Positions 17,765 to 54,726 of a stretch of DNA of 64,000 nt are shown here, in pieces (the first letter of the stretch is position 1; each line of letters starts with the position of its first letter). Source of the DNA: Eledone cirrhosa (taxonomy: Eukaryota); assembly GCA_964016885.1 (NCBI GenBank), contig OZ024748.1, positions 51,708,001-51,772,000 of the forward strand, given 5' to 3'. Below the pieces are notes generated by a model, which saw only the letters and a program-made list of their open reading frames with translations, made no database searches and was not told the origin of the DNA. The translations under genes were made by a program, and so were the position numbers.

Positions 17765-17930
17765 ATAATTAAGATTTCATCATGACTATTTCTATTGATG
17801 ATGCCATAGCTATTTTACCCCAGATACCATATCATGGTGTATATATATATATATATACCATGGTATGGTATCTGGGGTAAGATAGCTATGGCATCATCAA
17901 TAGAAATAGTCATGATGAAATCTTAATTAT
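17765..17930. repeat. ~166-bp palindrome centred on (TA)n
   Basis: Arms of ~75 bp with three mismatches, read directly. Confidence 0.95.
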
Positions 17931-18038
17931 ATATCTTAATTATATATATATATATATATATATAAAGAGTGTCCCACAAAAATGTTGAAGAGTGTATATA
18001 TTTTTTAGGGACAACCTGTTTATACATATATATATATA

Positions 18039-19366
18039 TTCATTATCGCCCTCCAAGCTATAATGGAGGAGTTCAAGACCGGCTGCCCATGGGAACTTCT
18101 ATACGCAGATGATCTAACGCTCATAGCCGAATCAATGGGTGAACTAGAGAAGAAATTCCAAACATGGAAGCATGGCCTAGAATCAAAAGGCCTTAAAGTT
18201 AACTTGTCTAAGACTAAAGTCCTAATATGTAGGAAGGAGAATAGGGCACTGGTCCCATCTGGGAAATGGCCATGCTCAGTGTGTAGGAAAGGGGTAGGCA
18301 GAAACTCCATTTTATGTCCCAAATGCAAAGTATGGGTGCATAAAAGATGTAGTGGTATCACAGGTAAGCTAACTAAGAACATAGATTTTATATGTGGCCG
18401 GTGCTCTGATGCAATAAGTAGCAGCAAATGCCCACAGAATACAAGCTCATTCCATTGCCCAGATGGTTCTATAGAAATAGTGGACACCTTCCATTACCTG
18501 GGTGACAAAATCAGCAGTGGGGGAGGGTGCTCTGAAAGTACAGTAGCTAGAGTCAGAACGGGATGGAAAAAGTTCAGAGAGCTTATACCACTATTGGCCA
18601 CTAAAGGTTTCTTTCTAAAAATAAAAGGCAGGCTGTATGATGCCTGCATACGAACAGCGATGTTACATGGCAGTGAGACATGGGCCATGTGTGCAGAGGA
18701 TCTATGCAGACTGGAGAGGAACGAAGCTTGCATGCTCCGTTGGATGTATAATACGCGAATGGCAAAGCATAAATGAACTAAGTGAGAAATTAGGAATAAG
18801 AGGGATCAAATGCTGTTTACTCGAGAGAAGACTACGTTGATATGGTCACGTGATGCGCATGAAAGATGACAGCTGTATAAAAAAGTGCAGGGTGATCAAA
18901 ATAGACGGTAGCTACGGAGTAGCCAGATCCAGAAAAACCTGGGACGACTTGATAAAATCCGACCTCACACACTTACACCTCTCCAAGACAATGTCACTGG
19001 ACTGAGATCTTTGGCGCTACGTAGTAATACAGAAGACCCGCCTTGCCTGAGTACAAAGCAAAACCTACAGTCAGTAGGCACCTCTTAACCAAAATACACC
19101 CCCCGTCCCACTACCCCTACCCCCATCTACATCCAGTCCTAAATAAATGAGGTCGTGTAGGTGTCACAACGCTGTAATGTGGCCGTGTAGGTAACACGGT
19201 AAAAACTCCCAGTCCACAATGTAAACATGGTTGGTGTTAGGAAGGGCATCCAGCCGTAGAAAACCCGCCAGACACTCCTGAGCAAGACAACCAATCTTGC
19301 TTCAAGTGGGACAATTCCCGTCCAGACCCATGATAGCGTGGAAAATTGACGTTAAACGATGATGAT
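18039..19366 (+). mobile_element. 5'-truncated RTE-clade non-LTR retrotransposon (RT C-terminal half with PHD-like finger, 3' UTR, (GAT)n tail), disabled
   Basis: Motifs LLYADDL, GLKVNLSKTKV, FHYLGD, MLHGSETW and RRLR*YGHVMRM. Cys-rich insert CSVC..CPKC..WVHKRC..CGRC. Frameshift near 18760 and a premature stop at 18838-18840. 3' UTR runs from ~19050 to 19366. Confidence 0.92.
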
Positions 19367-19588
19367 ATATAGTAAAATATTGGTGGATGTGAAAAAGGAA
19401 AGCAATGTTCAATCTGGTATGAGAGTTGATATATTATTCATTTATGTTCATACATGAAACAAATTGCTAACTAAGGTTTCAAGTGCCTGCTGACTAGGCC
19501 ACAAATTGAGGAGATGGTCAATCTGAGGAGATCGTCAAAATTGGGCCTTGAAACCTTAGGTAGTACTTTTGGTCTGTGTATAAACATA

Positions 19589-48696: not shown

Positions 48697-50995
48697 GCAA
48701 TGATCAACTCAAGACTAGAATAGAAGTCACTTGCTCAAGCTACAACAGATTAGAATAGAAGCCAGAGACTTGTGATGAAAAGCAATGATCAACTCAAGAT
48801 TAGAATAGAAGTCACTTGCTCAAGCTACAACAGATTAGGATAGAACCCAGAGACTTGTGATGAAAAGCAATGATCAACTCAAGACTAGAATAGAAGTCAG
48901 TTGTTCAAGCTACAACAGATTAGAATAGAAGCCAGAGACTTGTGATGAAAAGCAATGATCAACTCAAGACTAGAATAGAAGTCACTTGTTCAAGCTACAA
49001 CAGATTAGAATAGAAGCCAGAGTCTTGTGATGAAAAGCAATGATCAACTCAAGACTAGAATAGAAGTTAGTTGTTCAAGCTACAACAGATTAGAATAGAA
49101 GCCAGAGACTTGTGATGAAAAGCAATGATCAACTCAAGACTAGAATAGAAGCCACTTGTTCAAGCTACAACAGATTAGAATAGAAGCCAGAGTCTTGTGA
49201 TGAAAAGCAATGATCAACTCAAGACTAGAATAGAAGTCAGTTGTTCAAGCTACAACAGATTAGAATAGAAGCCAGAGACTTGTGATGAAAAGCAATGATC
49301 AACTCAAGACTAGAATAGAAGTCAGTTGTTCAAGCTACAACAGATTAGAACAGAAGCCAGAGACTTGTGATGAAAAGCAATGATCAACTCAAGACTAGAA
49401 TAGAAGTCACTTGCTCAAGCTACAACAGATTAGAACAGAAGCCAGAGACTTGTGATGAAAAGCAATGATCAACTCAAGACTAGAATAGAAGTCACTTGTT
49501 CAAGCTACAACAGATTAGAATAGAAGCCAGAGACTTGTGATGAAAAGCAATGATCAACTCAAGACTAGAATAGAAGTCAGTTGTTCAAGCTACAACAGAT
49601 TAGAATAGAAGCCATAGACTTGTGATTAAAAGCAATGATCAACTCAAGACTAGAATAGAAGTCACTTGCTCAAGCTACAACAGATTAGAACAGAAGCCAG
49701 AGACTTGTGATGAAAAGCAATGATCAACTCAAGACTAGAATAGAAGTCACTTGTTCAAGCTACAACAGATTAGAATAGAAGCCAGAGACTTGTGATGAAA
49801 AGCAATGATCAACTCAAGACTAGAATAGAAGTCAGTTGTTCAAGCTACAACAGATTAGAATAGAAGCCATAGACTTGTGATTAAAAGCAATGATCAACTC
49901 AAGACTAGAATAGAAGTCACTTGCTCAAGCTACAACAGATTAGAACAGAAGCCAGAGACTTGTGATGAAAAGCAATGATCAACTCAAGACTAGAATAGAA
50001 GTCACTTGTTCAAGCTACAACAGATTAGAATAGAAGCCAGAGACTTGTGATGAAAAGCAATGATCAACTCAAGACTAGAATAGAAGTCACTTGCTCAAGC
50101 TACAACAGATTAGAATAGAAGCCAGAGACTTGTGATGAAAAGCAATGATCAACTCAAGACTAGAATAGAAGTCACTTGTTCAAGCTACAACAGATTAGAA
50201 TAGAAGCCAGAGACTTGTGATGAAAAGCAATGATCAACTCAAGACTAGAATAGAAGTCACTTGCTCAAGCTACAACAGATTAGAATAGAAGCCAGAGACT
50301 TGTGATGAAAAGCAATGATCAACTCAAGACTAGAATAGAAGTCAGTTGTTCAAGCTACAACAGATTAGAATAGAAGCCATAGACTTGTGATTAAAAGCAA
50401 TGATCAACTCAAGACTAGAATAGAAGTCAGTTGTTCAAGCTACAACAGATTAGTATAGAAGCCAGAGACTTGTGATTAAAAGCAATGATCAACTCAAGAC
50501 TAGAATAGAAGTCACTTGTTCAAGCTACAACAGATTAGGATAGAACCCAGAGACTTGTGATGAAAAGCAATGATCAACTCAAGACTAGAATAGAAGTCAC
50601 TTGCTCAAGCTACAACAGATTAGAACAGAAGCCAGAGACTTGTGATGAAAAGCAATGATCAACTCAAGACTAGAATAGAAGTCAGTTGTTCAAGCTACAA
50701 CAGATTAGAATAGAAGCCATAGACTTGTGATTAAAAGCAATGATCAACTCAAGACTAGAATAGAAGTCAGTTGTTCAAGCTACAACAGATTAGAATAGAA
50801 GCCATAGACTTGTGATTAAAAGCAATGATCAACTCAAGACTAGAATAGAAGTCAGTTGTTCAAGCTACAACAGATTAGTATAGAAGCCAGAGACTTGTGA
50901 TTAAAAGCAATGATCAACTCAAGACTAGAATAGAAGTCACTTGTTCAAGCTACAACAGATTAGGATAGAACCCAGAGACTTGTGATGAAAAGCAA
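48697..50995. repeat. 85-bp tandem satellite, ~27 copies, SINE-head-derived
   Basis: GCAATGATCAACTCAAGACTAGAATAGAAGTCACTTGTTCAAGCTACAACAGATTAGAATAGAAGCCAGAGACTTGTGATGAAAA starts at 48697, 48782, 48867 and onward. Confidence 0.97.
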
Positions 50996-53547: not shown

Positions 53548-53942
53548 CATTCACAGGCAAACACTTATACATACACACATGTATATATATATGTACACAC
53601 CGAAATTTATTTAAAGTTGCTATACATATGAAATTCCTTGGGTATGTATGGGGTGTACATATATATATAAGTTTATATTAGAGATCTAATATTGTACATA
53701 ATATAATGCCTATTATAATAGTAATGGCTTATTATACATGAAACAACTTATTATACATGCATTCAATCTGTAAATATTCAAATTCTAAAGCTCTGATCTC
53801 CAACGAAATGTAGGAAAAACTTGATGTAGCAGCCCCTGTTTCATCTCAGAGTGAATATTTAATGTTATAGCAGGTGAAATGAGAAGTTGTGATGTTTATG
53901 CCGTTTCCACATAGCCTTTGCCAGCTGATCCCAGTGAGCATA

Positions 53943-54177
53943 CAGGCAAATCTACAGAGTAACAAGACTCAAACATGGCTGTAATAATAGAAATATTACT
54001 GTATATAGTCAAATATAAGCCAATCTGAATATAAGCTGACCTGCCACCACTATTCTATGTCTGAGAATAGTGGTGGTAGGGCAGCTTATATTCAAATTGG
54101 CTTATATTTGACTATATACAGTAATATTTCTATTATTACAGCCATGTTTGAGTCTTGTTACTCTGTAGATTTGCCTG
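53943..54177. repeat. Inverted repeat with 114-bp arms and a 7-nt loop
   Basis: 53943-54056 versus 54064-54177, three mismatches, loop ATGTCTG. Confidence 0.97.
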
Positions 54178-54179
54178 GT

Positions 54180-54358
54180 GAATTGGCAGTATCGGTAGAG
54201 GGTCGGACGCCATGCTTTCCAGCATAGTTACGTCCCTTTACGGTCTGAGTTCAAATCCGGCCGAGGTTAACTTTGCCTTTTATCCTTACGGGATCGATAA
54301 AATAAAGTACCAGTAATGTACTGGGTAATTTGCTGGCCTTGTGCCGAAAGTAGAAGCA
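54180..54358 (+). mobile_element. SINE family A, slightly 5'-truncated
   Basis: Consensus-like. 19-bp TSD ACTATTCTATGTCTGAGAA at 54049-54067 and 54359-54377. Confidence 0.9.
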
Positions 54359-54726
54359 ACTATTCTATGTCTGAGAAATGGGCAAAAATCCAAACCGCAT
54401 TTATAAACTGAGGCTGGTAATCAACATATTGTTTAGAAGGCATATAGAAGCCAACCCTTCATTTCACTATCGGTTGCTTGGTCACACATTCCTCAGCTTA
54501 TATTTGAGGATGTACAGTAATCTCTACTTTGGTATTGAGTAATCATTTTCATAACTCTCAATACTAAGCAGATAGATATCACAGCCTCCCTGGTGTTGGT
54601 GACTTACACAATAAACACAGCCAGTACATTCTGTAAAGTGGTTAGTGATAGGAAGGGCACCCAGCTGTTGAAAGGTTGCCAAACAAGCGGTTGGTTGACC
54701 TACTGGTTGTGTCAGAGACATGATGA

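What the first reader, a model, noticed from the sequence alone, without database searches (positions are those of the whole stretch)
53943..54377. 114-bp fold-back duplication of flanking DNA captured inside a SINE target-site duplication
Seen: flank (53943-54056), TSD ACTATTCTATGTCTGAGAA (54049-54067), reverse complement of the flank (to 54177), SINE A (54180-54358), TSD again (54359-54377). The TSD carries its own micro-hairpin, TTCT-atgtctg-AGAA. Inference: during target-primed reverse transcription the free 3' end of the top strand snapped back on that 4-bp microhomology, copied ~110 nt of itself, then switched to the SINE cDNA. Retrotransposition thereby turned unique DNA into a long hairpin, a possible route to new ADAR substrates or hairpin/miRNA precursors.
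Basis: partly seen in the sequence, partly recalled or inferred. Interest (0 to 1): 0.75.

Follow-up and report, generated by a model that had tools for sequence, protein, structure and literature searches.

The report
SINE insertion with folded-back flank copy
A short jumping gene (SINE) sits behind a 110-base mirror-image copy of the DNA just upstream of it, likely made when the cut host strand folded back and copied itself during insertion, a rare accident already described for human LINE-1 and seen here in an animal genome assembly.

Summary
The structure is real: arms 53943-54056 and 54064-54177 (111/114 complementary), an exact 19-bp TSD, and a nearly full-length SINE starting at 54177/8. 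Contigs of two runs of one sample hold the hairpin top unchanged. The flank is not unique DNA: the SINE landed in an older TA-flanked MITE. Eight of 9 paralogous MITE copies run from the TSD sequence into right-flank-like sequence, and none into the arm. The arm spans a site-specific junction of two old repeats, so it is a local copy, not a palindromic element. Best reading: snap-back synthesis from the top-strand 3' overhang during insertion. This matches the 'foldback inversion' of human L1 (4 events, about 0.4%, 52-220 bp; PMC10191854). Among 459 other copies I found one clear and one probable case. Transcription, editing and small RNAs are untested, no host gene was found, and the genome already has about 80 long palindromes per Mb. 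The scan noted related but different (cDNA) snap-back hairpins elsewhere in this genome. Verdict: a clean example of a known, rare outcome.

The parts
53925..53994 (.). Decayed end of an old dispersed repeat (terminal-inverted-repeat-like, 'MITE-2'); its inner part is the distal half of the copied flank
   Evidence: 81-90% to 4 other places in G000; L013 shows the same end as one of two inverted termini; high contig depth at 53926-53988
53997..54519 (.). Older TA-flanked MITE ('MITE-1', body 53999-54517, TA at 53997-8 and 54518-9), the host of the insertion; imperfect terminal inverted repeats near 53995-54020 and 54496-54521
   Evidence: (40 of 269 candidates scored; best paralogs 87%)
53943..54056 (+). 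Left arm = original flank, inferred template of the fold-back synthesis
   Evidence: At 54025 and 54039 it carries the base most MITE-1 paralogs have; at 54043 the paralogs vary, and none shows the right-arm base (8 paralogs read by eye)
54049..54067 (+). Left TSD copy, inferred 19-nt top-strand 3' overhang; its last 4 bases pair with 54053-54056 over a 7-nt loop (-0.4 kcal/mol as DNA)
54068..54177 (-). 110 nt of added DNA: reverse complement of 53943-54052 with 3 substitutions (the right arm counted with the stem is 54064-54177)
   Evidence: contigs with 0 differences over 54012-54125
54177..54358 (+). SINE, about 182 nt, about 5 nt short at the 5' end; A-box-like motif at 54184, B-box-like motif at 54249; G at 54177 is shared with the arm
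   Evidence: (nearest copies 95%)
54359..54377 (+). Right TSD copy, 19/19 identical to the left
54378..54517 (.). Remainder of MITE-1; paralogs run into it directly from the TSD sequence

Best explanation
A SINE inside an older MITE is preceded, within one 19-bp target-site duplication, by a 110-base inverted copy of its own upstream flank, likely made in one insertion event in which the cut top strand folded back and primed copying of itself. Steps: (1) bottom-strand nick at 54048|49, and reverse transcription primed there (inferred from the family's TSD rule); (2) top-strand nick after 54067, leaving a 19-nt 3' overhang (inferred from the TSD); (3) resection or displacement of the bottom strand, and pairing of AGAA-3' with TTCT (the stem is shown, its use inferred); (4) a host repair polymerase adds 110 nt (the product is shown; the enzyme is unknown, with polymerase theta-type snap-back the likeliest); (5) the new end is joined, with at most 1 base of homology, to a cDNA lacking about 5 terminal bases, then filled in. 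It is most likely a neutral insertion scar with no function.
For: Geometry: the added DNA begins exactly at the TSD end and ends exactly at the SINE start. Empty site by proxy: 8 of 9 MITE-1 paralog hits continue from the TSD sequence with AT(A/G)G like the right flank (11-23 of 24 bases ungapped), 1 has a deletion, and none continues like the arm (3-9 of 24). Local copy: the distal 52 bp are 100% identical between the arms but at best 81-90% to anything else found. Polarity: in 74 canonical insertions the TSD starts at the ATTA-like motif (base -1 differs in 68 of 74), and 28 of 30 departures from ATTATT in the right copy are shared by the left copy. So 54049-54052 are target bases whose bottom strand left with the primer, and only the top strand could template their inverted copy. 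Recurrence: L022 (TSD 18 bp, about 40-bp inverted flank, flank found only there and in its inverted copy, 7-bp stem ending at the TSD end) and probably L202 (TSD 18 bp with 1 mismatch, 4-bp stem, 10 added templated bases). The reversed and complement-only controls gave 0 of 460 each. Precedent: PMC10191854 section 11; bioRxiv 10.1101/2024.12.14.628481 section 9; PMC5728401 passages on 4-bp snap-back primers.
Against: No orthologous empty or SINE-only allele was seen, so a single event is inferred, not shown. A terminal stem of 4 bp or more is common by chance: 19 of 122 canonical TSD ends have one (at least 6 of 122 with a loop of 10 nt or less) and show no fold-back. The stem is worth only -0.4 kcal/mol. 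Age: the SINE has 4-7 rare changes in 182 nt (2.2-3.8%), while arms plus TSD show only 3 mismatches; Poisson P(3 or fewer) is 0.24 at 2%, 0.05 at 3% and 0.008 at 4%, so the arm could be younger than the SINE or partly homogenised. Four copies share the tail variant AGCA-ACTA, so ACTA could be tail-derived, which would weaken the polarity argument. L022 is complicated by a second SINE between flank and TSD; L202 is short and AT-rich.
Confidence: 0.8

Rival explanations
1. Two steps: an ordinary SINE insertion first, then a later replication template switch or break repair that started at the TSD micro-hairpin, copied the flank backwards and re-entered at the SINE 5' end.
For: The arms are somewhat more alike than the SINE's rare changes predict at the upper estimate (P = 0.05 at 3%, 0.008 at 4%). 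Fold-back priming at short inverted repeats needs no retrotransposon (PMC10622511 and PMC11724301, search listing and abstract start only).
Against: Both ends of the added DNA coincide with the insertion's 5' junction. The same coincidence recurs at L022 and probably L202, and in 0 of 460 for each of two controls. At the lower estimate the ages agree (P = 0.24).
Confidence: 0.09
2. One event with the opposite primer: the cDNA 3' end invaded the upstream flank at 53943, copied the bottom strand back towards the nick, and was then joined to the overhang (the less frequent, target-templated 'snap-back' class of R2 PRINT junctions).
For: PMC11371274 passages describe cDNA ends priming on nearby target DNA. 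The TSD's first bases resemble the SINE tail, so the nick position is formally ambiguous; 4 copies share this tail variant.
Against: Only 1 base of homology at 53943/54177. The family's nick maps just left of the ATTA-like motif, which removes the bottom-strand template for 54049-54052. The stem ending exactly at the TSD end would be partly a coincidence, also at L022.
Confidence: 0.07
3. The palindrome existed before the SINE, or is itself a dispersed fold-back element into which the SINE inserted.
For: This does happen in this genome: at L180 a SINE with an adjacent TSD sits inside a palindromic repeat. There are 141 long palindromes in 1.71 Mb.
Against: Here the arm lies between the two TSD copies, and the right TSD runs into the rest of MITE-1, as in the paralogs. 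The arm crosses the junction of two different old repeats. No second full copy was found in G000 (40 of 269 candidates scored).
Confidence: 0.02
4. Assembly or library artefact (fold-back chimeric read).
For: Fold-back artefacts of long reads are documented (PMC12870357, listing and abstract start). The runs that hold the hairpin are of one sample. No listed contig bridged 54177.
Against: The arms differ at 3 positions, and contigs of two runs carry the hairpin top with those differences at the depth of the flank. A chimera would not create a second TSD copy.
Confidence: 0.02

Closest known systems
[quoted passage not shown] 2023, PMC10191854; section 11 read, figure not seen)
   Same: TSD-bearing insertion with an inverted copy of the upstream flank at the 5' junction. 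The length of 110 nt lies in their 52-220 bp range. Frequency is similar: their 3 (0.3%) plus 1 (0.1%); here 1-2 of 459 other copies, 0.2-0.4%, 95% interval 0.006-1.6%.
   Different: Somatic human L1 with a poly-A tail there. Here a non-autonomous SINE with ATTA-directed targeting in an invertebrate assembly, old enough to have gathered substitutions, so presumably inherited.
Inverted duplication on the 'reciprocal end' of L1-induced breaks (bioRxiv 10.1101/2024.12.14.628481; section 9 and passages read)
   Same: Model of 5' resection, self-annealing of the 3' end in a small hairpin, synthesis and end joining to the cDNA end, with the TSD-like duplication kept.
   Different: Two cases (one experimental clone, one tumour) with 2-bp homology. 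Here the stem is 4 bp, and 7 bp at L022.
[quoted passage not shown]
   Same: A transient hairpin of about 4 bp within 30 nt of the break primes synthesis; the insert becomes part of a longer inverted repeat.
   Different: Studied at I-SceI breaks. The model ends with annealing at a new microhomology; here the final junction has at most 1 base, and the enzyme is not identified.
'Snap-back' 5' junctions of R2 PRINT insertions (PMC11371274; passages read) and flank-derived 5' extra nucleotides of zebrafish ZfL2-2 (PMC4245944; passages read)
   Same: Templated extra DNA at the 5' junction of a non-LTR insertion.
   Different: In PRINT the cDNA end is the primer and mostly copies the cDNA. Here the host top strand is the likelier primer and no SINE sequence is inverted.

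Membership tests
L1-type 5' foldback inversion (inverted duplication of target flank) | Non-LTR insertion with a TSD | tested here: met
   19/19 TSD; family TSDs mostly 10-24 bp
L1-type 5' foldback inversion (inverted duplication of target flank) | Inverted copy of the upstream flank between the left TSD and the element's 5' end, original flank retained | tested here: met
L1-type 5' foldback inversion (inverted duplication of target flank) | Small hairpin with microhomology at the inversion point | tested here: met
   4-bp stem, 7-nt loop, present in the right TSD copy too
L1-type 5' foldback inversion (inverted duplication of target flank) | Arm and insertion arose together | tested here: inconclusive
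   No orthologous allele covered; divergence compatible at the low estimate only
L1-type 5' foldback inversion (inverted duplication of target flank) | Driven by L1 ORF2p at a TTTT/A-type site with a poly-A tail | tested here: not met
   TSDs start at an ATTA-like motif and there is no poly-A tail. It works like the L1 product but is not an L1 event.
tRNA-derived SINE | Short, high-copy, non-coding, TSD-flanked | tested here: met
   496 distinct tail-bearing copies in 1.91 Mb of partly selected DNA
tRNA-derived SINE | Pol III A and B boxes, tRNA-related head | tested here: inconclusive
   Box-like motifs at 54184 and 54249 by recalled consensus patterns; ARAGORN finds no tRNA; no tRNA family among the Rfam matches
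tRNA-derived SINE | 3' end shared with a partner LINE | tested here: inconclusive
   No LINE with this tail among 59 tail-only hits. The RT fragment at about 18060-18776 was not linked to it. RTE-type mobilisation is a guess from the target/tail correlation (PMC6007223, abstract).
Dispersed palindromic MITE or fold-back element (the hairpin itself) | Other copies of the whole palindrome; own TSD at its outer ends | tested here: not met
miRNA precursor or ADAR substrate | Match to a known family | tested here: not met
   Best Rfam match MIR860 at 64.5 bits, below its gathering score of 89, as any long hairpin might give
miRNA precursor or ADAR substrate | Transcribed, processed or edited | not testable with these tools
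   No RNA data could be laid

The most novel reading that the evidence does not exclude
This SINE family fixes fold-back copies of its target flank at a few per thousand insertions, preferentially where the TSD ends in a short-loop stem. Extrapolated (50-160 copies per Mb, 0.2-0.4%), that is several hundred to about two thousand site-specific hairpins. Unlike inverted SINE pairs they make host sequence itself double-stranded, so some would create new editing-complementary sequences or splice-site masks for neighbouring exons in one step.
Probability: 0.15. Interest if true: 0.6.

Novelty: new member of a known kind. Interest (0 to 1): 0.3.

Why it matters
It extends a rare insertion outcome known from somatic human L1 to a non-L1 SINE in an invertebrate genome, at a similar rate. 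That suggests the 5' junction is finished by general host break repair, whatever the element. The host MITE gives an internal empty-site control, and the family's fixed nick position lets the primer strand be argued from sequence alone. A genome-wide count could test whether a stem at the TSD end predicts fold-back. As a source of double-stranded RNA it is minor in number: about 3 cases in 1.9 Mb against 141 long palindromes in 1.71 Mb.

Tried and rejected
1. Exon idea. The minus strand at 53978-53896 looks like an acceptor plus a 26-codon last exon, which would have made the arm an intronic partner of an exon. Rejected as unsupported: no Pfam or PDB match, its first half is an old repeat end, and the cover in other species was short pieces.
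2. Host gene search. 135 non-repeat open frames of 45 aa or more from the window and 170 kb of neighbouring DNA gave 1 weak Pfam match (DUF6451). Short exons would be missed, so intronic or intergenic is undecided.
3. Expression: no RNA holder listed.
4. Empty or orthologous allele. X4 and X7 (other organisms) and X5 (another sample) do not cover 53695-53862, and X6 covers little; nothing follows from that.
5. The TSD-free hairpin test (429 copies, 11 hits) found only the focal case of this build. The other ten were inverted SINE pairs, SINE-internal folds or palindromes with an adjacent TSD. It missed L022 and L202, so my counts are lower bounds.
6. L020 passed the filter and was dropped: score 23, template 244 nt away, doubtful TSD. 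The unfiltered run gave 8 hits against 13 control hits in 420, mostly microsatellites; the complexity filters were added after seeing that.
7. The L022 stem value printed used wrong coordinates and was discarded; the 7-bp stem is read.
8. Partner LINE not found.
9. Literature: searches showed no report of this structure for a SINE or in an invertebrate. The library lacks most subscription journals, I read only some listings further, and I read no supplements or figures.

Full report
Observation. The window lies in a 3.0-Gb animal assembly (G000:C8:51708001-51772000). The SINE resembles octopus SINEs as I recall them; I did not test that. The inverted repeat has arms 53943-54056 and 54064-54177, a 7-nt loop and three mismatched pairs. 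A 19-nt direct repeat lies at 54049-54067 and 54359-54377. The SINE begins at 54177 or 54178, directly at the end of the right arm, and lacks about five 5' bases. The fold is far beyond chance (z = -31).

Is it real DNA? Contigs of runs X1 and X2 cover 53590-54024 and 54012-54125 without a difference, the second including the loop and all three mismatches, at about the depth of the flank. Both runs are of one sample and may be the assembly's source. No listed piece bridged the arm/SINE junction. Arms that differ and a second TSD copy argue against a read chimera.

What the flank is. Window 53997-54067 matches a dispersed repeat (best 87%; 40 of 269 candidates scored). The same loci also match 54359-54521. 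The repeat is a TA-flanked element with terminal inverted repeats, 53999-54517. Its other copies show the pre-insertion state: 8 of 9 hits continue from the TSD sequence with AT(A/G)G like the right flank, one has a deletion, and none continues like the arm. The distal part of the arm (53943-53994) resembles the end of a second old repeat at 81-90%, while the two arms are identical there. The arm therefore crosses a junction specific to this site and is a local copy. At two mismatch columns the left arm has the paralogs' usual base, and at the third no paralog shows the right-arm base, so the right arm is the derived one.

Which strand primed. In 74 canonical insertions whose TSD could be anchored beyond the first six bases, the duplication starts at the ATTA-like motif. 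The base before it differs in 68 of 74, and 28 of 30 departures from ATTATT in the right copy are shared by the left. The first nick at this site therefore likely lay at 54048|49. The added DNA starts with the complement of 54052-54049, whose bottom strand would have left with the reverse-transcription primer, so the template was likely the top strand. The primer was then the top strand's own 3' end, paired AGAA to TTCT. The other junction shares one base only, which argues against the cDNA end as primer and fits end joining. Caveats: four copies share this tail variant. The stem is worth -0.4 kcal/mol. And 19 of 122 canonical TSD ends have a stem of 4 bp or more without folding back, so the stem permits but does not determine the outcome.

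One event or two. The SINE carries 4-7 rare changes in 182 nt; arms and TSD together show 3 mismatches. The Poisson chance of so few is 0.24 at 2%, 0.05 at 3% and 0.008 at 4% divergence. This is compatible with one event at the low estimate and in mild tension at the high one. No orthologous allele could be seen.

How often. I examined 290 sequences, 1,911,178 bases, with 496 distinct tail-bearing copies, of which 460 had enough flank. More than half of the copies counted (252 of 450) came from similarity searches with SINE queries or other targeted fetches, and the blocks favour small chromosomes, so the sample is not random, though it is blind to the flanks. The test for TSD, inverted flank, SINE, TSD gave four hits: the focal copy, L022, L202 and L020. 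Two controls gave 0 of 460 each; the filters were set after an unfiltered run. L020 was dropped (weak score, distant template). L022 has an 18-bp TSD ending in a 7-bp stem and about 40 bp of inverted flank at 91%. That flank occurs only there and in its inverted copy, and a second SINE sits between flank and TSD. L202 has a 4-bp stem and 10 templated bases in AT-rich DNA and is only probable. That gives 1-2 of 459, 0.2-0.4%, interval 0.006-1.6%.

Comparison with what is known. Nam et al. report foldback inversions upstream of the target in 3 (0.3%) plus 1 (0.1%) somatic L1 insertions, with 52-220 bp of extra synthesis (PMC10191854, section 11). The bioRxiv study 10.1101/2024.12.14.628481 gives the same model, with resection, a small hairpin, synthesis and joining, and two examples with 2-bp homology (section 9). 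Snap-back priming from stems of about 4 bp is established in Drosophila end joining (PMC5728401 passages). R2 PRINT snap-backs are mostly cDNA-primed (PMC11371274 passages). So it works like the L1 foldback inversion, but it is not an L1 event: the target rule differs and there is no poly-A tail. My seven searches showed no report for a SINE or an invertebrate, within a library that lacks most subscription journals; figures and supplements were not seen. Earlier notes of this scan describe cDNA-type snap-back hairpins elsewhere in this genome (e1-10308502, e1-10313550). They are unchecked and of a different build.

Function. Nothing shows that the hairpin is transcribed or edited. No host gene was found in 135 open frames, an apparent exon under the left arm did not hold up, and Rfam gives only sub-threshold hairpin matches. 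The genome has 141 non-microsatellite palindromes with arms of 24 bp or more in 1.71 Mb (I saw only part of the list), so this route adds little in number.

Verdict. Observation confirmed. The mechanism is likely right (0.8) and already published for L1; this is a new member of a known kind. Interest 0.3.

Noticed in passing
L022:1013-1425 (G000:C8, from 51822001): Second case of the same build: 18-bp TSD ending in a 7-bp stem, about 40 bp of inverted flank, then a 5'-truncated SINE; a second SINE lies between flank and left TSD.
   Followed up: yes
L202:5306-5545 (G000:C8, from 55080001): Probable short case: TSD with a 4-bp terminal stem, 10 templated and 6 unexplained bases before the SINE.
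   Followed up: partly
SINE family, 74 anchored insertions; TSD lengths: Strong target preference: TSDs start with an ATTA-like motif and are mostly 10-24 bp; copies often land in each other's tails and form tandem arrays (for example L107, period 202 bp).
   Followed up: partly
L180:6560-6870: SINE inserted into a pre-existing palindromic repeat that also appears at L160 and L185.
   Followed up: partly
L182:2144-2451, L071:8574-9138, L216:8912-9265, L230:1-173: SINE copies joined to short inverted pieces of themselves, possibly cDNA snap-back or twin-priming-like products.
   Followed up: no
window 54077-54095: All three arm mismatches appear to be in the new arm and lie within the first 28 of 110 added bases; the outer 82 bp are identical.
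   Followed up: partly
window 18060-19370: 3' fragment of a LINE with reverse-transcriptase and PHD-finger matches; its 3' end matches a common repeat in the sample.
   Followed up: partly
window 48697-50995: Tandem array with an 85-bp period, copies about 96% alike.
   Followed up: no
window 17785-17940: By eye, a palindrome-like repeat just upstream of the LINE fragment.
   Followed up: no
L270, L020, L161: 5' junction fillers that repeat part of the TSD in direct orientation, suggesting repeated priming or slippage.
   Followed up: no
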